Below are positions 28,651-59,307 of a stretch of 64,000 nucleotides of DNA, piece by piece; within the stretch, counting starts at the first letter, position 1; every line of letters starts with the position of its first letter. The notes under the pieces are model-generated. The model did no database searches, was not told where the DNA came from, and was given only the letters and a program-made list of their open reading frames with translations. The stretch comes from Raillietiella orientalis (lineage: Eukaryota): assembly GCA_036172245.1 (NCBI GenBank), contig JAYWIR010000003.1, forward strand, positions 6,696,001 through 6,760,000. The letters are read 5' to 3'. The translations under genes were made by a program, and so were the position numbers.

Positions 28651-28652
<2 letters not shown>

Positions 28653-28692
<40 letters not shown>
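28653..28692. repeat. (CT)20 microsatellite
   Basis: Directly visible. Confidence 0.9.
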
Positions 28693-28694
<2 letters not shown>

Positions 28695-34039: not shown

Positions 34040-35354
34040 TCAATTCACAGACTTCAGCTCGATCTCGAAAACAAGTGTGCTGTTCGGGGGAATGTCGGAT
34101 TCCTCCTCAGCACCGTATGCCATTTTCGGAGGAATCGTAAGTCTCCTTTTACCTCCCACTTTCATACCCTCCAGGCCGATGTCGAGTCCTTTGATGACGT
34201 CACCTTTACCCAGTTTGAATTTCAAAGGCTTTCCTCCGAGCAAGCTGTCGAACTCTTTGCCGCCACTCTTTAAACGACCAACATAGAAAATGCCCACTGT
34301 TTTTCCGGAGGAAGCTTCCGGTCCAGAACCGACAGCGAGATCCTCCGACAAAATGCCTCCCTTCTTCATGACCTTATTGAGGGCTTTCGCACTGTCACTG
34401 GGAAGATTCTTGTGACTGCTTGGGGTAGAGACATCCTTCTTGATCTCGTTTTTCTTTGCGGACACATCCCCGTTGGGGAAGATGTTCTTTTTGGCCGATC
34501 TCTGACCAGATTGGGCTTCTTTGCTGCTTTTCGCGACCGCATCATCGAAACTTTTAGAAAATTTGGCCTGAGGGTGTTTGTCTTGAGTTGGCTTTTTGAG
34601 AGCGGACTTGTTCTTGAGGGCAGAATTCTGTGACTTGTCCTGCGCTGCTTTCTTACTCTTCCCAACTAGCAATGTGCTCATCTCCTCTGCAAATGATCTG
34701 TTTTCTACGTTAAGCAGCCACCAATGCTCACCTTCCGTATCCATCTCATCGTCCGAATCATTGAGCTCATCGTCCTCATCAGTGTCTTCGTAGGGCAGCA
34801 TGTCCAAATCTGCAAGCATGCCATGCCAAGTAATCCTTACCAAGTGTAATATGCGTACCACTGCAACCCTCGTCCTCGTCCTCGTCATCCTCGTCTTCGT
34901 CATCGGAATCATCCTCATCTTCTACTTCGATGGGAATTTTCCTTGGTGCTTTCTCAGCCTTTACGTCTGAATCCTGGCTGGGCACGTGAGGCCGCTTTCG
35001 CTTGCGATCGGCCAGCAGTGCTTCTTCCTCTTCCTCCGAAAGGAGGGAATCATCGTCCAACAAATATCCGCTCAAGTACACTGGACCATGCCCTTGTACA
35101 GAAAATGACAGCTTTTTGTCCCTGGGAGTGAAGTTCAAGTCCACAGGTTGTTGTGAGTGTGTGTGTGACAGATTGCACAGCACGAATTCCTCCTTATCCA
35201 CTTTCAGGAGAAGCACTGTTGAACCTTGAGCTGAAGATGAAGCTTTACGGCCATCCAGGGCTGCCATTGATATGTGAAATGCTCTTTTCACTACGTGAAC
35301 ATAATCTTTGCCTGGTTCGAGGGCCAGCCCCCAAAAACATCCTTCTTCTTCCAT
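34040..35354 (-). CDS. FKBP39: Nucleoplasmin-like-domain FKBP peptidyl-prolyl isomerase (FKBP39/Fpr3-4 type histone chaperone); exons 35354-34859, 34809-34040
   Basis: N-terminal NPL domain (FWGLALEPGK, FHISMAAL, LCNL, GPVYLSGY), acidic and basic tracts, and a C-terminal FKBP domain (YVGRL, EFDS, VIKGLDIGLEGMKVGGKRRLTIPPKMAYG, IPPNSTLVFEIEL). One 49-nt GT-AG intron. AATAAA at 34029-34024. Confidence 0.92.
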
Positions 35355-40893: not shown

Positions 40894-43800
40894 ATTGCAA
40901 CCAAAGCGACTCCTGGAGCACATGGCTCACGGTTGCTACACGATTTTTTTAATTTCAGGAGAAATTCGTTTCAAATCTCAAGCATTCCCATTTGTTTTGG
41001 TCAGCGTATTGAATTTTTATGCAAAATCTACCTCAATGAATGTTCTGAAATCGTGGAAGCTTTTATTTCAAAGCATTTTCTATCAAGATGAATACGTTTA
41101 ATTTTAAAATCAGATGCTCTGTGTTGCACAGTTTTTAAGTTTTTTCAAGTTCCGCATTTAAGGAACGCTCTTTGATACACACGTCGATGCTTCGATATGA
41201 GTAAACTAGCAGAATTCTGATGAACAGTGCCATGCTGACATTTAAATGAGCAATTTTGGGTTTTATTTTCCTCAATTCATGATGGAAAAAAAAGGTTAAT
41301 TTAAAACACAATTCTACGAAGAGATAGACGACTGTCAAGTTAACTATCAACGTTAATGATATTCTTTTTCCAGATGCTCTGTGATGTTTCATAGCTATCC
41401 ATGGAAATCTTTCAGATGGCACTGATTTAGTTACCAATAGTATAGTCGTATGAAATCTATTCCATAACACTCCAAGAATTTGCAAGTTAATCTGTTAAGC
41501 ATTAGTAAATGTCTGCGGTATAATGAGTTTCATCCAAGAGAGTTTACTAAATGTGCCACAGCCAATAAATTATTGGGCAATTATATAATGGATCTCGTAC
41601 CATCATCCTTCATAAATATATATATAAATAATAGAGATTATTGTATAAGTTCAAAATCCTACATTACTGGCTTAGAAATGATCGCTATCTATCATTAGCA
41701 TTAATACAAACAAAAGAAAAAGAAATCACGAGTACCTAACTACTGTCAAATATCTTCAATGAGATATTGGAACTTTTGCATTTTTTATATCAGCAAAGGT
41801 GTCTCTACCCCCTTTTTACTGAGGTATATGGAATCTGCCTGTTCTGTACTCCTTCCTAACCTGAAGAATAGCAAAGCGTGAAAAGAAAGACCCCGCAATG
41901 AGATTTGGTGAATTTTTCACCTTTTTGTATGAAAAACTGCCTTTAAAAAACTGTTCCAGGGGTTCTTCCAGTTTTTTTTTTTTTTTCCCCTAGAGAAAAA
42001 TGATTGGACTTTCAAAGGAGTTTCATTATTGGCAATGGATACTAAAGCAGAATAACAGATGTCATCTTTTGAATCTTTCAGCCATATCGAAATACTTGCA
42101 AAAATGGATTTTGCACTCCAGATTTACATTTTGTACTCCAGAACTGTCTAACACGAGGAAAACATGTGTACTCTACGGTGACATAAGGGAACTCGATACA
42201 ACCATTGTAGGGTTTTCCATTCTGCAGGCAATCTCTAGACAAACTGGACAGTGGCAGTTGTTATGGTTGAAAATGGAATAATTGTGTACGTAGATTAGAC
42301 CTCCATCTGCTGCCTTCACGGACTGGAAGCTTTGCTCAACCATACAGCCCATCAAGAATCCACAGAAAGTTTATTTTTCGGAATACTCAGGCTGACAATG
42401 TCTCTGAAGATCCGCAGTCTATACTAAAGCAGACTGTAAAGATTTGCACGAGCATGTCAAGTCTTTTCGAGATGGAATGAAGAAAGGGATAAGTTCTCCA
42501 GTATGTTTGACCCATTCCCATCCTCTAACTACACAGCATTCCTTGTGAATATGACACCATACGCATTATGATATGAAGTATATTATTTGGAATGCACTGA
42601 AATGTAATTGATCCCATTAATAACCCCATGGAGTCATATCAGACTAAGGCACTGTATGCAGAATCAGCTGCGTATGAAGACTGCCTCGCGATACATATTT
42701 TTGTATTGCGAGGCGGTCTTACAGTTCCGTTGCAATACATTTGTAAATACTGTTGCAACTGATTCACTAACGGAAATTGAATTGATATGTACTTCCTTAA
42801 TTTGGAAGCGCAATACATTTTTAGTGAATTTTATTGTCCAGTTGATGCAATGCAACGGAAATTATTACATAGTCTTTGGCACAGGTATTTTTAAGGAAGA
42901 ATGTATATGGTCTATCGTACAACGAGCAGGGCAGTGAAAGGTATTTGTTGTTGACGAGTTCAACATTTGGATATGATCTAGACAGTAAACTAAAAATTAA
43001 AACCACTTGCTTTTGTCAAGAAATCATAAGAGCTATGCGGTTGTGGCTGTGAATGACGTAGTGGGACACCTTGAGGTAAGGGATTTGAGCTCACATATCC
43101 AATTTGGATTTCCTCAGTGTTTATTTTACCCTGCAGTGTTATTCTGAGAACAATTTATTTTAGGCATTGTACTTTGCACCGAAATACTGTTCTCTCGAAG
43201 CACTGCCACTGCATCCTAGGAGGGCGGGGATCAGCGGGGCAGCAGTGCCGACACCCCGCAGTGTTCTGCCCGAGACACATGGAACAATGTCCTGACTCAA
43301 GTGAATGCGGCGTTGCAGAAGTGCACACTGGAAACAGAAGCCCAAGTGAACATTCTGTTCGCTGCAGCGGTCACAGCGGTGGCTTTCCCTGAGATATCTT
43401 CCCGAATCTCCACTCGAGTCGAGACTTTTCATGAAAGTGCTCCAAACTCAAGAAGGAAAGTATTTTACAAATCACACGGACATTGATGTGTGTGTGTCTG
43501 TGAAAAAGAAAAATCAGACTGGGAGAACCACTCTTGATCTCAGAATTCAGATAAGGAAGAATCGGTGTGTTTTCAGTTCTGCCAAACACAAAAGAAACGA
43601 GCAGTCGAAAGTCCCCCAGACAGAGACGCCGAACGCGTGCGAATTCCCCGTTTTCCGCTATCTTTGTGCGTTTTAGAAGTACAATGACTCAGGCGTCTGG
43701 GACCGCCTTTTGCTAGTTACGTGGACCAGCTGTAAACGATGTCGCAACACCTCTCTTTGGTGTTTCTTTCTTCTCCGAGTTCAAAATGGTGAACGACTTT

Positions 43801-46383
43801 CTTCAGATTTGAAAACGAGTGTTTCTGGCTTAGTGTTTCTTTTTCCTCGGCTTTCCTCTACCCCACACACCATCTGGAGCACGATTGTTTTGCTTCTTCG
43901 GAGGTTGCTGCATCTCGTGCTTTCCGTTGGTTCAAGGTCCTCGAAAAGACGGCCGTGTCAAGAGAGCACGGTCGAGGAGACAACGTGCGGAGGGAGCGTT
44001 CCTCCGCCAGCCTCATGCTGCGAGATGAGCTCCTCGACGAGCTCTTTTGCACCGATTTCTGCACGAATCCGACCGTGTTCGGGGGGTAACCCTGGAGCCC
44101 ATTAGCGCGCGCGCGCTTCGAGCATTTCGGCATCCGGTTCTCCGAGCGCGCTGGAGCCAGGAGCGCGCGCGCGGTGCAGTAGGGATCAGAAACGTGGGGC
44201 GGATGCGAGGTGAACGTCTGCGTGGGTGGGAGGGCAAGCGCCCTACGACGACTGGTGGTTTCGAAGGATGAATGCATTCTTCCACCCGGACACCCGCCGC
44301 TCGCGAACCCCCCTCCCCCCCCGCACAAAACGCGGCAACGGGGATGAGTCGTATGACGCGCCATGCTCCGCGCGCACCTTCGCGCGCGTTTCCATGGTGA
44401 TCACGATGCCTCCTCCGACGTGAGGAAAAGATGATTTCACAGTGTTTCGCGTCCGGTATACATTATATGTTTAAGAGCACCATTTGTAGGATTTTTAAGC
44501 TTATTCCTACAATCTTCTTCGCTTCCTGTTGCTGGACTGGCTAACCCTTTACGAAAATTCATCAACCAGAATTTTCTCGTCTTCAGTTAATGTGAAATGT
44601 AGGTTAACTGAAGCTGAATCTTTTGGGCTAGTGGGATAATAGGCATTTGGACTAATAGGGTAACAGTGATCGATCTGTCGTTGGTTGGGGATAAGGCGAA
44701 CACGGGGTGCGGCGGGAGAGGCGATCGGAACCGACCGGAGCACGCGTTCTGGAAGGCGAAAGGGGTAGGATGCCATCGGGATAGGGCCGAAGTCAAATCG
44801 GAGCAGGTTCGGCGTAAGGCCCGCGTAGGGGACGGCCGTCGGCTGCGCGTTGGTCGTCACGAAGTTGCCGACCTCCCCCGGAAATCGCAAAAGGGAGGCG
44901 GGCGCGCACGAGAGCACCGTAACCGCGTGCGCATGCGCACGCCGGAGGAAGAAGCTCCTCGTTCCCCAGCGGAGCCCTCTGCGAGAAGGCCGACCCCAGC
45001 TCCGGGAGGAATGCTCGTCGGGGTGGGGGTGGGCGGCGGCAGCTCGAGCCAGTAGTGCCGCGCGGCGGAAACACCCGCAGAAACGCCTGCGGGTGCGCTC
45101 GCTCGCGTCTCGCCCGCCGCGCGAGCGGCTTTCTGGCGCGAGTTCGGTGCAGGGCGCGGCTGGAGGAGGCGCCCCCTCCCCCCTTCGCCCGCTGGCGTTT
45201 CTTTCTTCCTTCCTTTCTTTTTCCTCCTCCCCCTCCGCCTTCCGTCCTCGTCAGCCCGAACCCGACAAGGCGGCCCCCTTGGGCATTTCCTTCTTGTTTC
45301 ATTCCTCCGGCGGGGTCAGGCGACCCGCGCGAGTCCCCGGTGAAAGTGGAAGGTTCGACGTGTCCGGTCATCCTGCCGGCGGGGTCACGGCGAGGGGGTA
45401 GAGAGCGGAGGTCCCTCCTCCGCATCGGAGGATGTGCCTCCTGGCGACAGGTCGTCCCTGGGAGCCGAGCCAGGCCAGCGGGGGCATGCAACCTGATCGC
45501 ACAGTCGGGTCGGTTCGCCCCCTCCGTTGTTCCCCGACGAGCCGACGGCGTTTTCTCTTTCCTTCCCGTGCAAGTGACCCACCCCCTCGCCCTCGTGACG
45601 GCGGGTGCGCGACCACTCTCACTCTCTCTCTTCTTTTTCCCTTCCTGAGGTCGAGGTCGCCGGTGACGCCCCCTCGCCACCGGCCTTGCGTTCCGCCCAG
45701 GGGGCATGACCTCGGCGTCTCAGGACGCTCTGGTCGCGGCGGGGGCCTTTCGGGAGGAGGGGGCGTGGGGGATGAAGGACGCACGTGCGGGGGAAGCGAA
45801 GGCCGCGGATGGGGCAAACGAAGGGTGGGGAGCGGGAGCGCGTGGCGGCAGACGAGGAGGGGGCCAAGGGGGGAGACGAAGGTCGCGTGGCTGGCAGTTG
45901 CCGCAGCAACCCGCCCGCCTGCCGCCCTCCCTCGCTAGTCCAGCACCCTCCTCCCTCTCCCCCTTGGAAAGGGGGCACCCGCCCTCCCCACGCCCTTCCG
46001 GGTGGCGCGTGGACGCTCCGTCCGAAGCGAACAGCCCAAGGAAGTGCTTCCTTCGTCAACGCCTCTGACGACCGGCGGCGGTGGCAGCACGAGCACGTAC
46101 CCGTCCGCGGGGCGGGTGAGCTGCCCACGGCCCCGCCCCTTCCCGCGCGCCCCGGAATGAAAAAACGTGCGGGAAGACCCGGCTGGACTGAGAAGGACAC
46201 ACGGTGTTTGCACAGGCACCGCCACAGGGGGCGGTGCCGGCGGCGGCTTGGCGTCCTCCTCGTTTTCTCCGCTCTCGCTCCCTCGGCGACGGCGGCGGCG
46301 GCGGCGGCTGGGTGTCCCTCCCCCCCCCCCCTCGGAGAAGGGGGGGGGGAATAGGGTCAGTCCGACCTTCTCCCGGCCCGCCA

Positions 46384-48031
46384 CTAGGACAGCATGCAGT
46401 AGCCGTCGGACACAGCGGCGGCATCCGGCCTGGCGGGGTCTGCTGCGGCGGTGCTGCAGGAAGAGAGAGAAATGGCGCGCGGCGAGGGGCATCCCACTCA
46501 CCGGTTGAGCCGCATGTGGCTGCGCACCAGCTCGCCCTCGGCCAGGGCCGCCATGAGGGACAGTTCGCCGGCCAGCACGGTGGCGCAGATGACGCTGGCG
46601 AGTAGGGCGGCGTTCTCGCCTGGGCACCCTTCGGACGGGCCGGAGGCTCCCAGCAACTGCAAGCAGGCGCGCTGCGACGGCAGGGAGGTGCCCCCGCCCA
46701 CCGTGCCAACCTCCAGGCAGGGCATCGTGCAGGACACGCGCAGGGAGCGGTCCTCCTGGGCGTCCATCTGGGTCAGGCAGAAGGAGCTGCACACGACCTG
46801 GGCCAGGTCCTGCCCCGTGGCGAGGAAGATGGCAGCGACGATGTTGGCGGCGTGGGCGTTGCAGCCGCCGACAGCGCCCGCCAGAGCGGAGCCCACCAGG
46901 TTCTTGGAGACGTTGAGCGAGGCCAGGCGCCCGGCGGTGGTGCGCAGCGTCCCCTCCAGGACGGACGCCGGGACGACCGCCTCGCACACCACCTCGCGGC
47001 CGCGCCCGTTGATCCAGTTGAGCGCCGTCGCCTTCTTGTCCGCGCAGAAGTTGGCGCTCAAGGACACCACCTCCAGGTCCTCGAACTCCTGCTCGAGGGC
47101 GTGCAGGGCGACCTCCACCCCCTTGGTGACCATGTTCATGCCCATGGCGTCCCCCGTGCTCGCGCGGAAGCGCAGGTAGAGGGTGCACCCTGCTGGGCGG
47201 CAGTCCACACCCGCCAGCCGTGCGAACCTGGACGTCGAGTCGAACGCCGCCTTCAACCTCTGGAAGTGGGCGGCCTCGCGTAGCCAGTGGCGGGCGGCGC
47301 TGGCGGCGCAGGCGTGAGCGAAGGCAGGCGCGCGGGCGGCGGTACTCACTCGGCACGAGCGGCGGAGGGCAGGCGCACGGCCGCGCCGCGCGTCATGCCG
47401 ACCTCCACGACGCGGGCGCTGACACCCCCGGACTGGCGCAGGGCGGCACATCCGCGGTTGGTGCTGGCCACCAGGCAGCCCTCGGTGGTGGCCAGGGGCA
47501 CGAAGAAGGGCTTGCCGTCGACCGGCAGGGGGCCCACAACGCCCACGGGGACGGTAGCGTAGCCCACGACGTTCTCGCAGCACACGCCGCTGACCTTCTC
47601 GTACTCGTAGTGGTGGAAGGGCAGATCACCCAGAGCGCCCTCCTTCCCGGAAAGGGCCTCCACGGCTGCGCGCCGCACGCGCACCGCCCGACCGGCGTCG
47701 CCGAGGGCGCATTCCAGCTGGTGCATTCGCAGCCTCCTGGAAACAAGCAGCAGCTCGCGCAGCTCGTGGTCCGACAGGCACGAGAGAGAGGCGTGACCCT
47801 GGGGGCAAGAACGGGAGGGGAGCGATCGTGTCCCGCCCGACCTCTGCTTACTTTCAGGGGAGGAGCAGGAGATGGCTGCTGCTGCTGCTGCTGCTGCCCA
47901 CGAGCTGCAGAGCCGGCGCCACCGCCTTCGCCGGCCTCCCCGGCCGCAGGTGCTGCTAGCGGCGGCGGCGGCGGCGGCGAAGCGGGCGCCAAGCACGCGA
48001 ACTCCGGCGAGAAGCGGATGGCGTCCTCCAT
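46384..48031 (-). CDS. HMGCR: HMG-CoA reductase paralogue, catalytic domain only (~498 aa), C-terminal CaaX; exons 48031-47852, 47798-47350, 47299-46502, 46453-46384
   Basis: Motifs [51 protein letters not shown] and LVRSHM are intact. Intron positions match the second copy. The start Met at 48031 is inferred and less certain than the rest of the model. Confidence 0.9.
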
Positions 48032-50907
48032 GTCCTGGTGCGGGCGGGGTCAGAGTGAGATCACGGAGGAGGAGGAGGAGGGGGGGGGATGTCTCCGAGG
48101 GCACGCCAAGCGGTCGCGCGCTGCGCTCCTCCGCCCTCCCTCCCCCCACCCTCGCGACGGCGTGACGGGACGGTCCCGGGTCCCGCGGCACCAACTCACC
48201 GGCGGTCGCCCAGGCTCGGAGGGTCTCCCTTGTTGCTGCCGGCGAGGTCCGGCGAAAGTGCGGTCGGTGGGAGCGCGGCAGGTCACGTGCACTCCTGACG
48301 GCCGGGCTCGCGCCTCTTCTGTGCAGCCCGCCCCATCACCGCGGGAGGGTTTTTATGTTTCGGACGACCTCCGGGAGATTGGAAGGACGGGAACGCGCGC
48401 GTGGGGACCGTCTCTCCCGAAGCCCCTAATTGCTTGCCGGAAGGTCGGGTATCCGAGGAGCCCCGGACCGCATGCAAAGAGCCCTTCCCCCCGCCCCCTC
48501 CTCCTCTCCCTAACCCCTTCTCCGCGCGCGCATGCCGACGGGCAGGCGGCGGCGAAGCGCCTCCACCGCCACGCACCGCGGAACGCTCGCCAATTGCGCC
48601 ACCTCCCTGCCCCCCGCTCGCTCCGACCCACGAGGGCGTCCGCTCCCCGCCTCGCGCGCGCGAGGGCAACTCGGCCGCCCCGTAGTTGCCGGCCACCGAG
48701 CGCTCTCCGGTCCCGCGCGGGGCAGCTGACACCCAGAAGCGTGCCGTCGCCACGGAGCCCTCCTCCCGTAGCAGCAGGCGCGCGCGCTCGCGTGTCGGAT
48801 GAACGCACGACACCCCTCCCCTCCCCCCAGTGGGGTTGCTTCCGTCTGTGGTCCGATGGCGGCCAGGGCTCCACTGTCTCCACCGACAGTGGCAGGTCGG
48901 CTTCCGGGCGCGGCCCTAGGCTGCGGCAGATGGACACAAACAAAGGCGACCGAAGAGCTGCCCTCGCTCAACTGGGGAAGCGAAAATTAGGGCTTCCCCT
49001 GATGCAATGTCCCCTTCTCAGGAACGGCGAGCGACCCAGGTCGGACGGCTGTCTGGTTTTGCCCGGAGTTCCCGACAGGGCGTGTCGCAGCGGTCACTGT
49101 GCCGGTGTTTCCCGCGTGGCTGTCCACTACGGCTGCTGCCGTTTCGTGGCCTGCCCGACCGAGGCTCCGCGAGAGTGGGACACACTGAGGTTCCCCTGCA
49201 GCCGTCGACTTGTCGCGCATGCGTGGTGCTCGCCGGTCTGCTCCAAGCTGGCGCGGGAAGCTCCGGAAGGCAGAAGGGGAGGAAGAGGCGGTCGGGGGCG
49301 AAGCCCCGTTCGCAGTCCCCGAGACAAGGGCCCACCAGCTGGGACGATCCGCTCCGCGCCTTCGCTCCTAAGGATACGCCGAGCCAGAGGGGGGGAGGCC
49401 GTGGGGAGGGGAGGTGCCTGGGAGCCATCGTCTGGCGTCTCAGAAAGAGCTCCCTCCCGCAGTAAGGGTGCGTAGAACGCGCGCAGGACCGAACCCCGCT
49501 TGGGTCTGCACACCGGAAACGCGGAAGCAATCCTCCTCCCTCGTTTTTTTCCCTTCTTTCCTTCATTTCAAAGCTCTCGGAGGCAGCGAGCAGCATCCCG
49601 GATGCACTGCATCCTCCGTCTTGGGAAGCTACCGTGGTGCTGTCACCTTGCAGCGGTGACCTCTTGCCGCTGCTCTGGGGGAACGGCCTGGTCTCTGCTC
49701 GAGTCTAAGGAACCAGGCGCTTTTTCCTCCTCCTCCTCCTCCTCCTTTTTTCGTCTCCACCGGCTGCTGGAGCGGTGAGTCAGCTGGGAAATCCGTTGTG
49801 TCGAAGGGATGGTCGACGCCGCCCGCGGAGGCAGCATGCATCAAAAGAGTTCGGGGGGAAGGGAGAAAGCACAAAAGGGGATTTCGGAAAAAGTGCATCT
49901 CCTGAGCAGTCAACAAACTCGAGCTCGGAAGGTCAACGGCACAGGGTGAATCCAACCCATGCACATTTGACCCAAACGTCAAAAGATGCCTCAGTTACTC
50001 GTAACGGACGGCAACGGCGTGCGGTTCCACGCTCACCGTCGCTGTGCGCGATCGGTAAATCCTCTGCAGCGCGCGTGCGATCGGTTACCCACGGGGGTAG
50101 CGAGGGTGAGGACGCCTCTGGGCAGTTTTGCCGCTGCTCGAGCCTCGTGGACCTGGGTTCCGTCGGAATGAGCGTCGGGTCGGAAGGTGCCTTCCTGGAG
50201 GAGGGAGGGGGGGCGGGGGTTCTGGGCAAGAGCGACAGGAAAGCCTCTTCGGCGAGATGCGCCTCCGTATCTTCGGACAACAGGGCGAACGGTTTCGAGC
50301 GCACCTCAGTCGATAAGGCAGCTGCCCAGAGGCGTTGACAGCAGTGGTCGTGGACTTGGATCACTTATCCCGCGCCTTTTTTTCGCTCTTGGAAACGAGG
50401 GGGAGAGCAGGCGAGGGGATGTGCTACGCTTGGTCGTGCTCGAGCACGCCGTATAGTGGACGCGGGTGGCAGCACGTGGTTTTCTGGAGAGCTCCAGGCG
50501 CCGGAACACCTGCGTGATGACTCAAGGATTTCTCCAGCTCTCCAGGAATTCAGGGTTTCCCTTTCCTGGCTGATGACGATTTTTTCCACGAAGAGAAATT
50601 TTGTGGGCTACCCCACCGAATGTCATCAGAGATGGGTTCGCGTGCGCCGAACCCCCCCAATGGGCAGGATCGGTGTTCGGCTCACCCGATCTCTCTTATG
50701 GACGTGTATATTCCAAGGCAGAAAGAAGGAAGGCCGTCAAGAATCCAGAAATTTTCCGCAAATGATTTTTCCCAAGAGAATCGGCAGAGCGCGAGGGAGG
50801 GATGTGCAGCTATTCGACCCACTCAACGCAGCGATCCACTGGGGTGACGCGCAGGGTGGGATGTCTCATAACGCAGCTCGAGATCCTCCTTGTGATTTTT
50901 ATCTGCG

Positions 50908-50910
<3 letters not shown>

Positions 50911-50946
<36 letters not shown>
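50911..50946. repeat. (CA)18 microsatellite
   Basis: Directly visible. Confidence 0.9.
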
Positions 50947-50947
<1 letters not shown>

Positions 50948-53931
50948 GCAGTGGACGAGGACATTTCCGAATTCCGGCAGCGTGCGTGTCGCAACTGTGC
51001 ACGGCCTAATAGGCGAGTGACAGCGAAGAAAGTAGGAGCGCGCTTATCGCACAGTCGGAGGGCGGACGACCCATCGGATGCTTGAAAGTGGCAAGACACG
51101 AACACTGAAACGGAGTTCACCACATCTCGGAAGGCTCCCTTGCGAAAACTTGTTGCGAAACACGCTGGCAAATCCACTGGGAGGACAACGCGCGCGCTGT
51201 GCTTGCGAGACCACCCACAAGTCCCGTTCCGACGCTGAAGAGAGCCGATGCTCCAGATGTGTTCGCAGTCGCCGAGGAATGCAAACGCCGCTAGTTGATT
51301 ATGCATTCCGATGTTGGTTCCTTCGCTGCTCGTCTCGGGCTACACTGTTGCTCCTTGCATGGGGAACAGTTTTAAAACTGCTTCGGCGCGGCCTCCGAAC
51401 AAGCGATGGTGCGGCCGCGGGCAATCCCAGCTTCTCGGCTCCGAAGACGTCTGCTTTCATTCGATCCCACGGTCTTGCTTCTTCGGAGCGTGCGCCATTT
51501 TGGATTAGCCGCGCTCAATGCCCGGGGTGGACCCGACCAAGAAGACACGCCAGAGGACACTTCCCCTGGTGGCCGTTTTCGCAAGTGGGGGGAGCAACTT
51601 GCCGACCGGCCCGTGAACGATGGTTGGCCTTTTGTTTTTCGATGGCATGAGAAGGGGTGGAGGAGGTCAGAGGACAAGTCGGGGAGGGAATAAGGGTGAT
51701 GCGGCCGAGAGTCGCAGGGGGAGATTTTTTTTGCCAGCAACTCATGATCAGCTGCTGCGGATGGGACGTGACTTGCAATAGGAACGAGACAGTAGGGCTA
51801 AAGTTGATCTGACTAGGAAGGTAGGATTGTCGGGTGAAGGCTGAGGAGAAAGAAGAAGAAGAAGAACGGGGACAGACGCAGACTCTTGAGCTAAGAAGTA
51901 CTATTACTGCACGTCGTGGCGTGAGCGGAGAGATGGTGGGACGTGGGGAGAGGAACTGAGGGTGAGATACATTCCCAGCCTCAGATCGATTGCCAGTCAG
52001 CTGTTTGTCGAAACCGGGATCGGGAATCCGAGTGGAAACAAAAGGTGGCCTCGAGGGGGAGAATACGACGATGAGTCTCTTGGAAAAAGGGGCTATCAGC
52101 TCTGCTCTCAGCTTACCCGGGAAGTTGTTTGGGGCGACTGCTAGACGAGATCTCGTCGAAGCATTCCTTGACCTCCTCAGAGTGGGCGGCTGAGAGTAGG
52201 GAGACCGCGGGGCCGATCGTGGGGCGAACAAAGCCGCTCTTCGTTATCAGGGCAAGCGTTTACGCTTCCCAAAGTCGGTTGGCGAACCTCCTTGATGGAT
52301 TGCTGCTAGCGGTAGCGGTGATGCGCGGAGGAATAGCAACCCTTCCAGCAACATTCAACCTACCTTTTCACTGTTTGTCATTTTATTAAGGTTGAAGCCG
52401 GATAAGAGGAATCGAAGTACCATTTTATTCCGGTTGCCTTACAAAGATCTCCCTATCCTGTAATCCATTACGCGATAACACAATGGATGCAACACGTGAT
52501 GTGGCGGGATGTGTTACATCCATTGCAAGCTGCCCAAATCTTTTCCCTGTTCTCTTCACGAAGACAAAAAGAGCTTTGCTGCAGAATTCGAGCAAAATCT
52601 CCATAAATAACTGATCAAAAGGTTTGACTTCTGTAGAGATGACGAGCTCCCTGTTCCAATCTCTCGCAAGCGAAGAACTCTGCATGCAGAGACAGACGAT
52701 GGAAGAGACTTGGAGGAGCAGAATGGTGGGGAAGAGGAGTGAGTAATGGTAGCAAAGGGATCGTTTCTCTTTTCGCTCGGAGAAAACGGTGGGAAAAGAT
52801 AGGGCGGGTGTCAGGTCTCATCTGGGTGAGCTGCATCCGTTGCCATCGCATTAGGGTTGCGAACGGCGGAACCGGAACCTTGAACCAAGAGATTGGGGTT
52901 TCACTGTCTGCCGCATCAAGACTCGATAAATCAGTTGATTCACAGCAAGTTATCCATCAGGTGAAGAACTCTGCTGCAAGGACCGGCAAACATGTGTCTT
53001 CCTCCAAATCTCTGCACGAGTCATCCATGCTTTCATGGCATCCTTAACGAATGGAATGCCTACTTGCTAGCCTCTTTACAGCGTCAGACACTCTAGGCGT
53101 AGGACAGCACCCAGGTGAGTTTCAGTTCCCTATTTGGACGACTTTCTTCACTGCAACATGGCGACATGCATCTACTTGTTTATTTGTATTTTGCTTATAC
53201 TTTCCAGGTGCACTTAACGTTAGTGCATTCTGATATTTATTTATCGTTAAACGTATTAAGTTTCCACGTTCGGCAAGCGCGAGGTCTGGAGCAAATCCGG
53301 CCACCATAGGACGCTCTGCGAAGGAATTCATCTGCATCCGGCTTTTTTGAACCGTGCATGTGGGTTTCTGCAGGAATGCATGTTCGGACCCAAGCAAGGT
53401 GGACGAAGCACAGGCGAGGTGTGCACTATAAAATTTCCAGTATGGATCACGCAAACGATTGAAAGTCTAAAAGAAAAAGATTACCATTCCATGAGCAGCT
53501 GGACAATTTCTGCCGGGTCATGAAATTCAATTTTACAAAGGGATCGTAGTTTGCTGAAATGATGATTTGCATGATTACGAGCAAAGGTCCCAGAGTCCCG
53601 TCCTCGAGAGCCGATGCGTGCCCCCCACTTGAAATCCGGATTTTGCAAACGGAGCTCCTCAAACTCTAAATTTTTGCTGTTCAGAACATCCCTCCTAAGG
53701 AACAAATTCTTGTATCAAAGGTCGAGTGCTCTCACCCGTTTTCACTCACCACGAAAGGTGCGATTCGGTGCAGGCGAACGCGAGGAGGTTTCGGGCGGTG
53801 GCTTCGAAGAAAAGTGGTGGGCAAGTACGTGCCCTATTCCTGCTTGGAATGCTTGATGAGGCCACCCCTTTTCTTGCCAAAATGATAGTCGAAATTTTTT
53901 CAACTTTCAGATTGTAATAATAATACTCATT

Positions 53932-54240
53932 ATAATAATGCTGACTTCTGCTTTATTGCTAATTCTACTTTGGACTCGGTTAACACCAGGGATTTCGCTG
54001 CTGGTATTTGTAACTCTATTTTTTGCTCTACTTGGATTTATTGATGATTATTTAAAATTAAAGGCGAATCACCATCGTGGTTTACATGTAAAAACCAAAA
54101 TACTTCTTCAATTTATCGTTGCTCTGATTAGTGTGTCTACACTTAAGCTATATTCTGCTGAAAGTATTACAGCAACGTCCTTATTTAAAGGAATAATAGT
54201 CGACTTTGGCTACCTACATGCTTCGTTTGCTGCATTTGTA
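53932..54240 (+). pseudogene. mraY: Internal fragment of bacterial mraY (phospho-N-acetylmuramoyl-pentapeptide transferase), Wolbachia-like; probable endosymbiont-to-nucleus insertion
   Basis: Translation ILLWTRLTPGISLLVFVTLFFALLGFIDDYLKLKANHHRGLHVKTKILLQF...IIVDFGYL..FAAFV contains the MraY GFIDDYxK...GL..K.K motif. The upstream PTMGG and downstream SNAVNLTDGLDG motifs are absent. The segment is markedly AT-rich compared with its flanks. The Wolbachia assignment is from memory. Confidence 0.85.
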
Positions 54241-56577
54241 AGGACTGCCCATATCGAGTAAAGCTGAAGGTTTTTTGTGCATCTTTCACAAATTTGCGCT
54301 GTGGAAAGGTCAGGGTTTCGATATGCAAACAGTAGTTATTCGTTGCTAATTTGCGTAGAACAATATGAACGAACGTTGACTCGAGCAAAGTAGAAAGCTT
54401 TTCAGTGTGTAGAGATGCGGGAAATACCAAAGCGGCAGAAACCTTGCTGCTCATCTTCATTGAAATCAGTAATTTTAAGATGACCCACCGACCATGTCAT
54501 TCACCAGTTACGAACAACCGAAGTCACGCATGCATTTTAGACCTGCAAATGAATCCATACCATTATGATCACAAGTACAACGCATCAAAATATTTCGAAA
54601 TTACGTTAAGAAACTGAAAGTCGAGTCCTGGAAGAGAGGTCCTGACACTTCAGGAGTAAGTTCCTTTGAAAAGACGAACTCGAAACCTGTAGGAAATCAA
54701 GGCCAGCTCGAAGAAGTCACAAACTTCTCCTGAAAAGAGAAGGAAAAAAAGGTCAATGAGACGAAAACGCGAAGGGTGCATTTTCGCTCTCTGAAATAGT
54801 TGGTAGAGGATGGACGACTTTACTGACGTCCGTTCTTTCTCAATTTCGACGACTGCCACCTACTTGGTGCTTCTTGATCTTGCAGTGTGTCGGAGAACTG
54901 GAGCGACTTAAGATGAGTTCGAATAATTAGCCAGAATAGACGGTTTAATAAAAGGCGGTTTGGTATGTCAAGAACTGCCATATTCTACAGAGCACGTATA
55001 CGAAGGGCATGTGAGGAAGAGGGAACCACTGGGAGACGTCTTATCGCAGGCTGCCTCGTTCCTCGCACCCCAGAAAGCTTCTCGTACGGTCGCTCTTCGA
55101 CGCCCATCGGCAAAAGCCTTAGCCTCTTCCCTTTTTTGTAAGTAAGCGTCCAGGGTTTCCCGTGCCGTTGTGTCCTCCCCAGGGACAGATACTGTTGGCT
55201 TTGTGTTTTTGGCGGTTGGACATGCCGTTCACTACTGATGTTGGAATGCTTTTCGAATTTCAAACGGAACGACCTGGAACCCACTTTTCTGTGCACTCGA
55301 CAAGGAAGCGCGTTTGTTTGTTTGTTTTTTTTTTGAGGGGGCTGCCACCTAAACGAAACTTCATCTGGCTCCTGGTGATCTGGCAAGAGGTGGTTGCCGT
55401 GCCGAATTGTGCCACTCTGCGTTGGAAGACGTCACGTGATCTCGTATTGCGGTGCGTCCTCCTGAACCACTTGTTTTGCATCTTTCTAGAGTAAGGAAAC
55501 CTTAGCAAGCCCCACATCCGACTGCTCTTGGGCTCCGCTGGTCCAAAGGTTCACGAAACAGCTGGGAACTGTGGTTCTTGCGCCACTGTGGTAAGTTTTT
55601 ACGCTGTACTATTAGCTCATTCCACTGTGAATGCCAACGGCCCAGGTTTCAGTCGAACTTCCAATGCTTTGAATGTGCACACATCCCTTTATAATTTTCA
55701 TAGCTTAGCCATGGCCAGGAATCGTTTATTCGTGTTTTTTTTTTTTCCTTCCAGACACCTTTTTCGAAGCGAAACCTCTTTTACTAGTAAAAACTTCAGG
55801 CAGCCCCCGACGAGGTGTCCGAAGTCCTTGAACGTGAACTGTCGCAAACAGAAATCACCTGCATCGCATTCATTGCAAGAAAATTTTGCGTTTGAAATCT
55901 TTACGAAACCCATTTCTCCGCCTGCTTGCTATCCCTCTCGCGATGTCATTTAAAAAAGTTGGCATCAAGGCTGTCATAGTGTAAACTCTTTAGTCTTTCG
56001 GTCGAATGCATTTGGAAATGTGTTCAAAATGACGAATAATTATTGTTTAGGTGCTTACCTATTGCATATCTAAATGTTTACCTTGAGTTTCACGAATTTT
56101 TACAACAGCTTAATTTGTTCAGAGTAGCTAAACATGTTTTCTATCCTGCATCAAGCAATTAAACAGACTGGAATCAGTCCATGTGGAAAATACTGTTTCC
56201 TTTTAAAGACAGGAAGTGAAAGGTTAGCTTATTTATTAAAGAACTGGGAATTGTAAAAGTACTTGATGCAGAGATGTGGCAGAATCGACTGCTTTGCTCG
56301 CAAGAAGCATGCAAACTGCTGCAAAAAATACAGGATTTTCATTATAATATGCAAGATAAGTATTAAGATGAAAGTACTTGAATAGGAAGAACAACAGACA
56401 ATGCTGTTTGGGCTGCAAAAGAGAAAATGATTCCACTAATGCTTAATTATGATAAGCCTCTTCCACCTATTTCATATAAATACGGGAATGCCTTGGAAAC
56501 TTCGATAAAAAGTGTCTGCAAATTCATGAGAGAGAGAGAAAAGGGACTTTTTAAAGTATTTCTTGTATTTCCTCTTC

Positions 56578-59307
56578 TTATGGAGACAAACAATTTACGG
56601 CTGTTACAGAGCTGAAAGTAAAAAAAAAAAAAAAAACTGCTTATTCTTTAAAAAGAGTAAAAAATATGCACCAACCGATTGTGTTTCATGTGGCTGCGCA
56701 CCAGTTCTCCTTCTGCCAGTGCTGCCATTAGAGATAGTTCAGCAGCTAGCACAGTTGCACAAACAATACGTGCCAGCTGCGAAGCATTTTCTCCTGGCTT
56801 GCCAGAAGCACCTGCAACTCCAAGCAGGTGAAGACAAGCAGACTGTGAAGGTAATGTGGTGCCACCTCCAACAGTACCAACTTCAAGAGAAGGCATAGTG
56901 CAAGATATACAAAGAGAATCATTTTCTCCAACTTCCATTTGTGTGAGGCAGAAAGAGCTGCTCACTACCTGGGCAGGATCCTGGCCAGTAGCCACAAAAA
57001 TTGCTGCCACAATATTTGCTGCATGGGCATTGCAGCCACCAATAGCACCGGCCATGGCAGAGCCAACTAAATTTTTGGACACATTCAAGGAGGATAAACG
57101 TGCAGCTGTTGTACGCAGCACGTTGGATAAGGTGGAAGCTGGAATAGCTGCCTCACAAACAACTAGATGGCCACGGCCTTCCAGCCAATTTATGGCAGTT
57201 GCCTTCTTATCAGCACAGTAATTGGCACTTAGTGCAATAACCTCCAAAGGAGGAAACTCTTCTTTCATAACATGCAAAGCAGCTTCCACCCCTTTGGTGA
57301 CCATGTTCATGCCCATTGCATCTCCAGTGTTTGCCACAAATCTCATGTAAAGTGTGCGACCCGCAAGTTTGCAAGTGATGTGTTTCAACTGAGCAAATCG
57401 GGAAGTAGCATCGAATGCGGCTTTCACCTGCTTGAAATGAGAATGGTGGGAAATCCACTGCCGAACCATTCTAACAACAAACAGCACTGATTTCTTGAGC
57501 AGATAATTTACACTTACTCAGCTTGGGCCACAGATGGCATGCGAACAGCTGGTCCACGGGTCATTCCAGTGTCGATTACGTGACTGGTCACACCACCTGA
57601 CTGCCGAAGAGCAGCACATCCACGATTTGTGCTTGCTACAAGGCAACCCTCAGTGGTGGCTAGTGGCACAACTACTGGAAGTCCGTCAAGAATAAGAGGC
57701 CCGACAGCTCCAACTGGCATGGTAGCAAATCCAATAATGTTTTCACAGCAAGATCCAATCACTCGTTGGTACTCATAATGACGAAACGGTAGCTGTGCTA
57801 GTGCACCCTGCCTGCCGCTCAGTACTTCCACAGCTTTACGTCGTATGTACACTGCTCTTTCAGGATTGCCCAGTGCATCTTCCAGTTGATGCATACGTAG
57901 TTGGCGAGAATCCAGCAACTTGAAAATTTCTGCATCAGACAGCATGGATGCACCACCCTGAACAATAGCTTCATTTCAATCTCAGGATGATCATTCGTGT
58001 TTACCTTCTGTAATTTTGTGTTGCACTGATCTTCATCCTGGTTATGCTGGGGATTACTTATTTTCTTGTCTGCAACATCATCATTTTCAAGATCAGCACC
58101 AAGTTTGAAATGCGACACTGGCGAACAACATGGCTCTTGTATTTTACAATCCTTGAGATATGCTTGCTTGTCAAATAGAATGTGCTTGAAAGCCAGGGAA
58201 ACTGCCACAATGGCTACTACAATCCGCTCCACACTATTACTCATCCACCTGCATATCGCACATTACTCTAAAGGCTGTACACACACTCCACTTGCCTCAA
58301 ACAGGGATAGTGGAAAGACTGGAAGAAGGCAGAGCTTCTGTATGGTAGTAAAGTTCCCTGTGGACTTCCCAGTACACAGCCTAGCACATGAACATAAAGG
58401 AGCACAAAAACCATGACTAGTTTCACGCGCTGCGTCACAGGGTTATCCTGTTGCACAGGCCAGTGCATGTTTGAATGCTCTGATGTATTGGCCTGCTGGC
58501 TGGTCAGCTGGATTAGAAGTGCTAGCATAGCCGGATGAAAGACCATCAGGGTTACATAATTTACTGCTATGGCAGCACACGCATAGGCACTCAGTATGTG
58601 TACGCGTTTCATATCCGAAAACGTGCCGACACCTATGAGCAGCACTCCAACAATTGTGTCCAGCGTGAATCCAGGACCAAAAGACTGCAAGGCTTGTGCC
58701 AAGCCATCTCGAACTCCTGTCGCTGGGTGGATGGCGAGGACGTGCTGGGTTATGGATCCAATTCTTTTGATGTCTAGCAAAAGCAAGAAAAAGAACAACG
58801 CATCTCTTAAAAGAGAAAAGAGCATCAATTCTTTTGAGAAACATAGGCATCTTACCTGAGGTCGCCGGCAGTTATTCCCAAGACGTGCAGGCAGACGCAA
58901 CAGAACAGCACAAATGAAAACGCCAGGAAAGCCACCGTGATGCCTAAAAATCAGCTAGCGTCGTACACCGTACACCGGTTGCATCTAGCGTTACCCAGTA
59001 CGTTGGCTCTGCTCTCTTGCAGCCTTTTCAACTGCTGTACGACGTACAGCACCGACGCGCAGCGAAGCACCGTCATGAAAATGACATCGGCTGCACGGTA
59101 TTCCTATAGCTCGGTCATCCTTTGCGAAACCGTGCCTGCGACGGAAAGACTTACGTTGTGAGGTTCATCAGGATGTACTGCGTTAACTTTGGCAAGAAGT
59201 TTCAGGTTACACGTGAGTAGGCATGTGACCACCGACGTGCTGAAGACGACCACTTCCCAAGGGTAGGATGCACACAAAGCACCGTGCCTCCGAAACGTAT
59301 AAAACAT
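56578..59307 (-). CDS. HMGCR: Full-length membrane-anchored HMG-CoA reductase (~790 aa); exons 59307-59155, 59103-58995, 58943-58856, 58805-58296, 58248-58005, 57957-57518, 57470-56676, 56611-56578
   Basis: N-terminal [17 protein letters not shown]. Sterol-sensing-domain segments [19 protein letters not shown] and NPVTQRVK. Catalytic motifs [36 protein letters not shown] and SHMKHNRS. The eight exons join in frame if intron 58249-58295 is GC-AG. Confidence 0.95.

What the first reader, a model, noticed from the sequence alone, without database searches (positions are those of the whole stretch)
46384..48200. HMG-CoA reductase paralogue lacking its membrane/sterol-sensing domain and ending in a CaaX farnesylation box
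Seen: this copy keeps every catalytic motif, but its N-terminus is only a 60-aa polyP/polyQ low-complexity stretch. I found no transmembrane-domain exons between 48.2 and 56.5 kb. Its spliced last exon reads RTAAADPARPDAAAVSDGYCMLS*, whereas the full-length neighbour ends AVNCLSP*. Established: animal HMGCR is ER-anchored and regulated through its N-terminal membrane domain; truncated forms (yeast tHMG1) escape that control; C-a-a-S (e.g. H-Ras CVLS) is a farnesyltransferase substrate; FPP is a downstream product of HMGCR. Inference: this may be a natural deregulated HMGCR whose localisation depends on modification by its own pathway product, a possible feedback loop for high-flux isoprenoid output such as juvenoids or pheromones.
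Basis: partly seen in the sequence, partly recalled or inferred. Interest (0 to 1): 0.85.

Follow-up and report, generated by a model that had tools for sequence, protein, structure and literature searches.

The report
Membrane-less HMG-CoA reductase copy ending CMLS
Next to an ordinary full-length HMG-CoA reductase gene lies an old, very GC-rich second copy that keeps the whole catalytic domain, has no membrane domain, and ends in a textbook farnesylation signal; whether it is expressed or lipid-modified could not be tested.

Summary
On the minus strand, 46384-48031 reads as a 4-exon, 498-codon gene (copy A) with three GT..AG introns of 53, 50 and 48 nt. All three sit at the same positions and phases as introns of the full-length neighbour (copy B, 56578-59307).

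- **Catalytic domain:** A covers the whole HMG-CoA_red Pfam domain. It keeps 82 of 87 columns invariant in 182 database reductases; B keeps 83.
- **Relationship:** A is 70% identical to B and is its sister in a tree, inside Pancrustacea.
- **Age:** the duplication is ancient. Synonymous sites are saturated and dN is 0.22.
- **Membrane domain:** three searches found membrane-domain coding sequence only in B, none in the 8.5 kb between the copies.
- **C-terminus:** A ends CMLS, which a published yeast model scores like H-Ras CVLS. B ends CLSP, scored negative.

Weak points:
- Exon 1 (polyP/polyQ) shows no coding periodicity.
- B's membrane exons could in principle splice in frame into A's exon 2.
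- No RNA data, no orthologue and no whole genome were available.
- A near-terminal Cys is ancestral in animal reductases, so the CaaX fit is less improbable than it looks.

Verdict: probably a real soluble paralogue. Farnesylation is plausible and the proposed feedback loop is speculative.

The parts
47852..48031 (-). Copy A, putative exon 1. The ATG is at 48031 and it encodes 60 codons: MEDAIRF..., then (CCG)n polyP, (CAG)7 polyQ, ending ...PPLK.
   Evidence: Open frame with an in-frame TGA 18 nt upstream. The donor AAA|GTAAGC is followed by a 53-nt intron. It has no Pfam match, no GC3 periodicity and a maximum KD19 hydropathy of 0.53. Coding status is uncertain.
47350..47798 (-). Copy A exon 2: N-terminal part of the catalytic portion (GHASLSCLSDHELRELL ... 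RLPSAARA).
   Evidence: Pfam PF00368 positions 2-108, E 1e-32. The phase-0 acceptor sits at the same place as in copy B. GC3 is 0.87.
46502..47299 (-). Copy A exon 3: the rest of the catalytic domain, up to ...LVRSHMRLNR.
   Evidence: Pfam PF00368 positions 112-367 of 368, E 3e-90. Matches human HMGCR structures 1dq8 and 2q1l at E about 4e-93. GC3 is 0.95.
46384..46453 (-). Copy A exon 4: tail TAAADPARPDAAAVSDGYCMLS plus the TAG stop (46386-46384).
   Evidence: Preceded by a 48-nt GT..AG intron with the tract TTTCTCTCTCTTCCTGCAG. The intron position and phase match copy B's last intron. GC3 is 0.83.
46387..46398 (-). CaaX box codons: Cys-Met-Leu-Ser.
   Evidence: Read directly from the sequence. 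In the S2 File of PMC9231725, CMLS is 1 in all six prediction columns, like CVLS; CLSP is 0 in all six (column headers not seen).
56578..59307 (-). Copy B: the full-length HMGCR neighbour and sister paralogue. ATG at 59307, stop TAA at 56580-56578, ends ...[10 protein letters not shown].
   Evidence: Sterol-sensing domain PF12349 at 58271-58954. PF00368 at 57518-57957 and 56678-57469. At least 8 hydrophobic segments. N-terminal profile hits at 57822-59436. Only the last three exon borders were fixed exactly.

Best explanation
Copy A is an old, lineage-specific tandem duplicate of the 3' part of the HMG-CoA reductase gene. It survives as a gene of its own and encodes a catalytic-domain-only, therefore soluble, class I reductase. 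This enzyme would escape whatever control the membrane/sterol-sensing domain gives copy B.

Its C-terminal CMLS sits at the end of an Ala/Pro/Asp-rich tail, 24 residues after the catalytic His. It is most likely farnesylated. That would give a weak lipid anchor to cytosolic membrane faces in place of the lost transmembrane domain.

Shown:
- An intact 4-exon frame.
- Introns shared with B.
- A complete catalytic domain under purifying selection.
- No membrane-domain sequence nearby.
- A canonical CaaX string.

Inferred:
- Independent transcription.
- Use of exon 1 as the start (otherwise Met85 in exon 2).
- Solubility.
- Farnesylation and membrane tethering.
For: Gene structure:
- The three introns (53, 50, 48 nt; GT..AG) sit at the same positions and phases as in B, so A is a DNA-level duplicate and not a retrocopy.
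- All introns I fixed exactly in both copies are about 47-64 nt, so a 10-kb intron from B into A would be out of character.

Relationship to B:
- A and B are 70% identical (294 of 422).
- They share 36 residues that are rare (under 5%) in 182 other HMGCRs.
- They are sisters with SH-aLRT 100.

Selection:
- dN is 0.219 over 411 codons, while 143 of 184 four-fold sites differ, so synonymous sites are saturated.
- There is no stop or frameshift.
- A keeps 82 of 87 invariant columns and 161 of 178 columns conserved at 95% or more. B keeps 83 and 162.
- The Pfam domain is fully covered.

No membrane domain:
- Searches find none outside B.
- Between 43 and 53 kb, codon-position GC periodicity appears in A's exons 2-3 and in one borderline window at 44781-44960, downstream of A's stop; none lies upstream of exon 2.
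- A has no hydrophobic segment except the conserved catalytic helix at residues 440-464.

Separate regulation:
- CpG observed/expected is 0.91-1.0 over A and 0.33-0.58 over B.
- B has an AATAAA 343 nt after its stop.

CaaX:
- CMLS has the same six positive calls as H-Ras CVLS in a yeast prenylation/cleavage model. CLSP has none.
- Yeast FTase specificity depends mainly on the a2 and X positions, and I/L/M/V are favourable at a2.
Against: - No expression evidence of any kind: no run was listed.
- No orthologue is available to show that the tail or the truncation is conserved. The best database identity was 63% and the best metagenome identity 60%.
- Exon 1 has no coding periodicity and is built of CCG/CAG repeats.
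- No AATAAA or ATTAAA occurs within 3.2 kb after A's stop.
- B's linker-exon donor (phase 0) is frame-compatible with A's exon 2 acceptor.
- A near-terminal Cys is ancestral: 108 of 173 tails carry one, most often at -6. B also has Cys at -4. The canonical box therefore needed only two further favourable residues.
- The prenylation predictions are for yeast enzymes, and I did not see the table's column headers.
- A's protein composition is driven by GC. GARP residues make up 36.1%, above all 182 database sequences. Part of its divergence is therefore mutational, not adaptive.
Confidence: 0.4

Rival explanations
1. A is a real soluble catalytic-only paralogue, but the CMLS ending is a by-product. 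The ancestral near-terminal Cys happens to lie four residues from the stop. The enzyme stays cytosolic and unprenylated, or the tail folds back over the active site as the C-terminal flap does in the human enzyme.
For: - Cys within the last 12 residues occurs in 108 of 173 complete HMGCR tails.
- B has Cys at -4 in a non-substrate context, CLSP, with all six predictions negative.
- Five database tails that are arthropod by name (or, P0183, unnamed) have Cys at -4 with non-canonical boxes: CVSN twice, CKQS, CNNA and CSPP.
- No orthologue shows that the box is conserved.
Against: - CMLS scores exactly like the canonical CVLS.
- The 22-residue Ala/Pro/Asp-rich tail looks like an exposed linker.
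- Exon 4 keeps a coding-like GC3 of 0.83.
Confidence: 0.3
2. A is not a separate gene. It is an alternative 3' cassette of one HMGCR locus. B's membrane and linker exons splice past B's own catalytic exons into A's exon 2, giving a full-length isoform with a second catalytic domain and a CaaX end. Exon 1 is then non-coding or an alternative first exon.
For: - B's linker-exon donor (CAG AAG|gt) and A's exon-2 acceptor (cag|GGT) are both phase 0 and lie at homologous positions.
- Exon 1 lacks coding periodicity.
- Crab HMGR is reported to give two transcripts from one locus (PMC9409210 passages).
Against: - It needs a roughly 10-kb intron across B's terminal exon and its AATAAA at 56237. Every intron fixed exactly in both copies is about 47-64 nt.
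- A strong GTAAGC donor lies exactly 53 nt upstream of the exon-2 acceptor, in frame with an ATG.
- The very different CpG depletion of A and B argues for different germline methylation, hence different transcription units.
Confidence: 0.12
3. A is a silent or recently silenced relic. It is an unexpressed duplicate, kept looking intact by the GC-rich context in which stop codons are rare.
For: - At 72% GC, open frames are long by chance. A 781-codon antisense ORF overlaps the gene.
- There is no nearby canonical poly(A) signal.
- There is no RNA evidence.
- A's terminal branch is 1.6 times B's, 0.58 against 0.36.
Against: - With synonymous sites saturated, a neutral copy would not keep 82 of 87 invariant columns, the same as the functional neighbour.
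- It would also not keep three precise splice junctions and the reading frame over 1.3 kb.
- GC3 of 0.87-0.95 stands far above the 0.70-0.75 of the flanks and shows frame-specific constraint.
Confidence: 0.1

Closest known systems
Metazoan class I HMG-CoA reductase (human HMGCR; structures 1dq8, 2q1l)
   Same: A has a complete NADPH-type catalytic domain. Exon 3 matches the human catalytic portion at E about 4e-93. Pfam PF00368 is fully covered and the catalytic and cofactor motifs are present.
   Different: - There is no N-terminal eight-helix membrane/sterol-sensing domain.
- The Ser after HNR is Thr in A. It is Ser in 149 of 163 aligned sequences. That this Ser is the human AMPK site is recalled, not tested.
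- The tail ends in CaaX.
Soluble and short HMGR forms of decapod crustaceans. Lobster mandibular organ: Li et al. 2004, Biochem J 381:831, of which I saw only the title, in reference lists. Scylla paramamosain HMGR-Pa and HMGR-Pb: PMC9409210, passages.
   Same: This is arthropod HMGR made in a form without the full membrane region, in the setting of methyl farnesoate synthesis. The crab has ORFs of 2904 and 1965 nt.
   Different: - The crab paper states that the two transcripts come from the same location. I recall the same for lobster, but could not read that paper.
- Here the short form is a separate gene copy, 30% diverged in protein, of very different base composition, and with a CaaX end.
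Engineered truncated yeast Hmg1 (tHMG1) and the naturally soluble HMGR of trypanosomatids (both recalled, not checked here)
   Same: These are catalytic-domain-only eukaryotic HMGRs that are active without the membrane anchor. tHMG1 escapes feedback control.
   Different: tHMG1 is man-made and the trypanosomatid enzyme belongs to a distant lineage. As far as I recall, neither has a prenylation box.
Cnidarian full-length HMGCRs ending ...KNCAVL (P0110 Acropora muricata, P0132 Actinia tenebrosa, and the unnamed P0117 and P0189)
   Same: These are HMGCRs whose last four residues form a canonical CaaX box. CAVL is positive in 5 of 6 prediction columns.
   Different: - They keep the membrane and sterol-sensing domains (Pfam listing).
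- By recall, X = Leu points to geranylgeranylation rather than farnesylation.
- The lineage is unrelated, so the box arose independently.
Canonical farnesylated CaaX proteins such as H-Ras (CVLS)
   Same: Cys at -4, an aliphatic a2 (Leu) and X = Ser. The prediction profile in PMC9231725 S2 File is identical.
   Different: The carrier is a metabolic enzyme whose own pathway makes the farnesyl donor. There is no polybasic stretch or second lipidation site next to the box. A single Tyr-Cys precedes it.

Membership tests
Class I (eukaryotic, NADPH) HMG-CoA reductase, Pfam PF00368 | Full-length catalytic domain | tested here: met
   Exon 2 matches profile positions 2-108 (E 1e-32) and exon 3 matches 112-367 of 368 (E 3e-90). 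Human structures match at E about 4e-93.
Class I (eukaryotic, NADPH) HMG-CoA reductase, Pfam PF00368 | Catalytic Glu/Lys/Asp/His and cofactor motifs (ENV.G, DKK, GQD, SHM, DAMGMNM, GTVGGGT). The assignment of catalytic roles is recalled from the human enzyme. | tested here: met
   All the strings are present in the translation. A keeps 82 of 87 invariant columns and none of its 5 departures lies in these motifs.
Class I (eukaryotic, NADPH) HMG-CoA reductase, Pfam PF00368 | Reductase activity | not testable with these tools
   This needs a recombinant enzyme assay or complementation.
Canonical metazoan HMGCR architecture (membrane anchor plus sterol-sensing domain plus catalytic domain) | N-terminal multi-pass membrane domain with a sterol-sensing domain | tested here: not met
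   B has it: PF12349 at E 2.4e-10. For A, searches find none anywhere in 1-56600. The first 90 residues have a maximum KD19 hydropathy of 0.53. Caveat: trans-gene splicing from B is not excluded.
CaaX farnesyltransferase substrates | Cys at -4, permissive a2, and X in the FTase-preferred set | tested here: met
   The ending is CMLS. It is positive in all six columns of PMC9231725 S2 File, as is CVLS. The a2 rule comes from PMC10320760. These are yeast-based predictions, and I did not see the column headers.
CaaX farnesyltransferase substrates | The box is really the C-terminus of the expressed protein, and is cytosolic and accessible | tested here: inconclusive
   The splice sites are canonical and homologous to B's, but no RNA run was listed. 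Intron retention would end the protein at ...NR.
CaaX farnesyltransferase substrates | Covalent prenylation of the Cys | not testable with these tools
   This needs metabolic labelling or mass spectrometry.
Processed retrogene or pseudogene | Loss of parental introns; disabling mutations | tested here: not met
   Three introns are retained at the parental positions. There is no stop or frameshift in 1497 nt.

The most novel reading that the evidence does not exclude
The rate-limiting enzyme of the mevalonate pathway has been rebuilt in this crustacean-like lineage as a soluble protein. Its membrane attachment is written by its own pathway product. When farnesyl diphosphate is plentiful, the enzyme is farnesylated at CMLS and moves to membranes. 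When it is scarce, newly made enzyme stays cytosolic. That would be a product-gated switch of location, and hence of activity or turnover, replacing sterol-sensing control in an animal that makes no sterols. The independently conserved CAVL ending of cnidarian HMGCRs hints that prenylation of this enzyme may be a wider, overlooked theme.
Probability: 0.1. Interest if true: 0.85.

Novelty: new variant of a known kind. Interest (0 to 1): 0.5.

Why it matters
HMG-CoA reductase is the control point of isoprenoid synthesis. In arthropods that pathway feeds juvenile hormone and methyl farnesoate, protein prenylation, dolichol and ubiquinone.

Known control works through the membrane domain. Soluble forms have been described in decapods only as alternative transcripts. 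A separate gene for a catalytic-only enzyme, maintained by selection, would be a natural counterpart of the engineered truncated enzymes used to raise isoprenoid flux.

A working CaaX box on it would link the enzyme's location to the supply of its own downstream product. As far as my listings went, none of my literature searches surfaced such an arrangement. All of this rests on sequence alone, so its present value is as a sharply testable lead.

Tried and rejected
- **Whole genome:** none is held for this window.
- **Sequencing runs:** none was listed for 46300-48100, and there is no RNA holder. Expression and splicing could therefore not be checked, and read laying was not used.
- **Orthologue hunt:**
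  - A exon 3 against the protein collection ('longer' lengths): best identity 63%.
  - B exon 3: best identity 65%.
  - A exon 3 against metagenome contigs: 80 loci kept, best identity 60%.
  - No orthologue of A or close relative of the host was found.
- **Host identification:** the FERM exon of a neighbouring gene gave no hit at E <= 1e-10. Cluster look-up of the tree's sister sequences P0061 and P0071 gave no organism names.
- **Earlier scan notes:** nothing was found.
- **Self-comparison:** blastn of 43.5-52.5 kb against the window found only the A-B exon-3 match (65% over 696 nt), so the duplication borders cannot be traced.
- **Other genes between A and B:** a Pfam scan of 77 ORFs of 70 or more codons in 42-56.6 kb found only a bacterial mraY fragment.
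- **Literature:**
  - The Li et al. 2004 and 2010 lobster papers are not held.
  - The search for 'CMLS' hit only a journal abbreviation.
  - One supplement part of PMC10320760 listed two scores per CXXX without headers. It did not include CMLS and I made no use of it.
- **Rejected readings:**
  - Retrocopy, because the introns are shared.
  - Transposon or repeat capture, because the flanks hold no repeats.
  - Assembly artefact, because the sequence is continuous with no N.
Full report
**What is there**

Two HMG-CoA reductase (HMGCR) genes lie head to tail on the minus strand of the window.

Copy B (ATG 59307, stop 56580-56578) is an ordinary full-length animal enzyme.
- Its ORF pieces at 57822-59436 match a profile built from 154 N-terminal membrane regions, at E 4e-42 to 0.03.
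- The piece at 58271-58954 matches the sterol-sensing domain PF12349.
- It contains at least eight hydrophobic segments.
- Its two large 3' exons carry the PF00368 catalytic domain.

Copy A lies 8.5 kb downstream, inside a block of about 70% GC that spans 44-50 kb. Reading the minus strand and assembling it in a script gives these exons:
- 48031-47852
- 47798-47350
- 47299-46502
- 46453-46384

The introns are 53, 50 and 48 nt, all GT..AG with pyrimidine tracts. The CDS is 1497 nt and encodes 498 residues ending ...NRTAAADPARPDAAAVSDGYCMLS*. Copy B ends ...[12 protein letters not shown] after a homologous short last intron.

**A is a DNA-level duplicate, old, and under selection**

All three A introns sit at the same codon positions and phases as introns of B:
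- before G[GH]AS, phase 0
- inside the A[ED] codon, phase 2
- after ...NR, phase 2

A is therefore not a retrocopy.

Evidence that A and B are sister copies:
- A and B are 70% identical, 294 of 422 aligned residues.
- Each is at most 63-65% identical to anything among the best 120 hits of two database searches.
- In a quick maximum-likelihood tree, A and B are sisters with SH-aLRT 100 on a long stem. The tree had 56 rows: A, B and 54 sequences that I chose from the 193 retrieved. It gives SH-aLRT support only.
- The pair sits inside a Pancrustacea group (support 97), next to two unnamed environmental sequences (support 89).
- They share 36 residues that are rare (under 5%) in 182 other HMGCRs. 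Eleven of the 193 were dropped from that count for lacking an N-terminal margin before the TTEG motif.

Evidence for age and constraint:
- At the nucleotide level only exon 3 still aligns, at 65% over 696 nt.
- Four-fold sites differ at 143 of 184, which is saturation, while dN is 0.219 over 411 codons.
- Despite this age, A keeps 82 of 87 columns that are invariant in the 182 sequences, and 161 of 178 columns conserved at 95% or more. B keeps 83 and 162.
- The catalytic and cofactor strings are all present.
- Exon 3 matches the human catalytic-portion structures at E about 4e-93.

A decaying copy would not look like this. A has been a working reductase for most or all of its history.

**Composition**

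- A has 71.5% GC, with GC3 of 0.87 and 0.95 in exons 2 and 3. B's GC3 is 0.35-0.38.
- GC3 exceeds the 0.70-0.75 of the flanks, so the frame is constrained.
- The GC pressure has also shifted the protein. GARP residues make up 36.1%, above all 182 database sequences. FYMINK residues make up 11.4%, below all of them.
- The tree tool likewise flags A's composition, and A's terminal branch is 0.58 against 0.36 for B.
- CpG observed/expected is 0.33-0.58 across B and 0.91-1.0 across A. In invertebrates with gene-body methylation, that pattern usually separates broadly expressed genes from restricted or inducible ones. This is general knowledge and an inference here. It also argues that A and B are different transcription units.

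**No membrane domain for A**

Three searches agree.
- tblastn with 8 full-length HMGCRs placed N-terminal matches only at 58134-59358. None of the 8 hit 48.05-56.6 kb.
- The 154-sequence N-terminal profile, run against every six-frame piece of 15 or more residues, hit only B. The best minus-strand pieces in the gap scored E about 8.5 and 13.
- B's own membrane ORF pieces, searched against 1-56600, gave nothing better than E 0.18, scattered on both strands.

Further support:
- Between 43 and 53 kb, codon-position GC periodicity of 0.30 or more occurs only in A's exons 2-3 and in one borderline window at 44781-44960.
- A's only hydrophobic stretch, residues 440-464, is the conserved helix of the catalytic domain.

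**The uncertain 5' end**

Points in favour of exon 1 as the start:
- It has an ATG in good context (G at -3 and at +4).
- There is an in-frame TGA 18 nt upstream.
- A consensus GTAAGC donor lies exactly one short intron upstream of the ancestral acceptor.

Points against:
- It is made of CCG and CAG repeats.
- It has no family match.
- Its positional GC of 0.82/0.67/0.72 looks like the non-coding flanks.
- At this GC content a 60-codon open frame is not unusual.

If exon 1 is not translated, the first Met in the catalytic frame is Met85, which would still give a catalytic-only protein.

The serious alternative is that B's linker exon splices into A's exon 2. Both sites are phase 0 and homologous. 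Against this:
- It would need a roughly 10-kb intron, when all introns I fixed exactly in both copies are about 47-64 nt.
- B's own terminal exon and its AATAAA at 56237 lie in between.
- The CpG contrast argues for separate transcription units.

No sequencing run was listed, so this stays open.

One more oddity: no AATAAA or ATTAAA occurs within 3.2 kb downstream of A's stop.

**The CaaX box**

CMLS has Cys at -4, Leu at a2 and Ser at X.
- B's CLSP is 0 in all six columns.
- PMC10320760 reports that yeast farnesyltransferase accepts a majority of CXXX sequences. It is restricted mainly at a2 and X, with I/L/M/V favourable at a2 (passages).

How surprising is the box? Less than it seems. Counts below come from the 193 database HMGCRs.
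- 20 of the 193 end at or near ...HNR and appear to be truncated models.
- Of the other 173, 108 have a Cys within the last 12 residues, most often at -6 (69 of them).
- 12 of the 193 have Cys at -4.
- B has Cys at -4 too, so this placement probably predates the duplication. A needed only favourable a2 and X residues.

Among named arthropod (and one unnamed) sequences the -4 boxes are non-canonical, with 0 to 3 of six positive calls:
- CVSN, twice
- CKQS
- CNNA
- CSPP

However, four full-length cnidarian HMGCRs end in the canonical CAVL: Acropora, Actinia and two unnamed sequences. A CaaX end therefore does not go with truncation.

**Most likely mechanism**

I read A as a separate gene for a soluble catalytic-only reductase, free of membrane-domain control. 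Its accessible CMLS end is probably farnesylated and gives it a weak membrane tether.

My estimates:
- About 0.7 that A is an independent, functional, membrane-less enzyme.
- About 0.4 that it is also farnesylated.
- About 0.1 that localisation gated by the pathway's own product is a regulatory loop. Nothing here tests that.

A small further difference may also point to altered regulation. The Ser that follows HNR in 149 of 163 aligned sequences is Thr in A. That this Ser is the AMPK site of the human enzyme is recalled, not tested.

**Comparison with what is known**

- Soluble HMGR in lobster is known to me from the title of Li et al. 2004, seen in reference lists only. The paper is not held.
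- The mud crab has two HMGR transcripts, with ORFs of 2904 and 1965 nt, stated to come from the same location (PMC9409210 passages).
- Those are isoforms of one gene. Here the short form is a separate, 30%-diverged paralogue.
- My searches for a prenylated or CaaX-bearing HMGCR, or for a duplicated crustacean HMGCR, listed nothing relevant. I looked only at the listings, which were 15 of 298 and 12 of 575 for the two broad searches. 'Not found' is therefore weak.

I class the finding as a new variant of a known kind.

**Host**

The species was not identified. The tree points to an arthropod host, probably a non-insect pancrustacean. So does a 133-codon fragment of a Wolbachia-like mraY at 53860-54258:
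- 69% and 67% identity to two Wolbachia genomes
- at most 44% identity to other bacteria
- profile positions 41-144 of 321

Noticed in passing
window 53860-54258 (+): A 133-codon ORF is a fragment of bacterial mraY (TIGR00445, E 1e-15, profile positions 41-144 of 321). Its best matches are Wolbachia genomes at 69% and 67% amino-acid identity (L081, L082); other bacteria reach at most 44%. It looks like an old nuclear insert of Wolbachia-like DNA between the two HMGCR copies.
   Followed up: partly
database proteins P0110 (Acropora muricata), P0132 (Actinia tenebrosa), P0117, P0189: Four full-length cnidarian-type HMGCRs all end ...KNCAVL, a canonical CaaX box, conserved between a stony coral and a sea anemone. 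This is a possible unrecognised prenylation site on an ordinary membrane-bound HMGCR.
   Followed up: partly
window 46453-46451 (Thr codon after ...LNR) in copy A: The Ser that follows HNR in 149 of 163 aligned HMGCRs is Thr in copy A and Ser in copy B. That this Ser is the AMPK phosphorylation site of the human enzyme is recalled. The His of HNR is also Leu in A.
   Followed up: partly
window 56000-59000 against 45000-49000: CpG observed/expected is 0.33-0.58 over copy B and 0.91-1.0 over copy A. This suggests B is methylated in the germline (broad expression) and A is not.
   Followed up: no
window 28000-34000: A second block of 66-73% GC holds many long ORFs (up to 758 codons, 27360-29633, minus strand), but none of the 17 ORFs scanned here had a Pfam match. 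Its nature is unknown.
   Followed up: no
window 24267-25265 (-), 34043-35354 (-), 35773-40926 (-): Neighbouring genes on the minus strand are an FKBP with TPR repeats, a nucleoplasmin-like FKBP (NPL plus FKBP_C), and a FERM plus tyrosine-kinase gene (FAK- or JAK-like). The FERM exon had no database hit at E <= 1e-10.
   Followed up: partly
database proteins P0007, P0012, P0013, P0015, P0032, P0033, P0074, P0124: Eight unnamed catalytic-only HMGCR predictions of 523-574 residues have the tail ...TCIKHVS (or that string just before the end), and the five of them in the tree form one clade beside Lingula. They are probably single-exon ORF calls on eukaryotic contigs, not true truncated enzymes.
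   Followed up: no
window about 50900-50990: A (CA)n/(TG)n microsatellite, read as THTHTH... or CVCVCV... in the ORF list.
   Followed up: no
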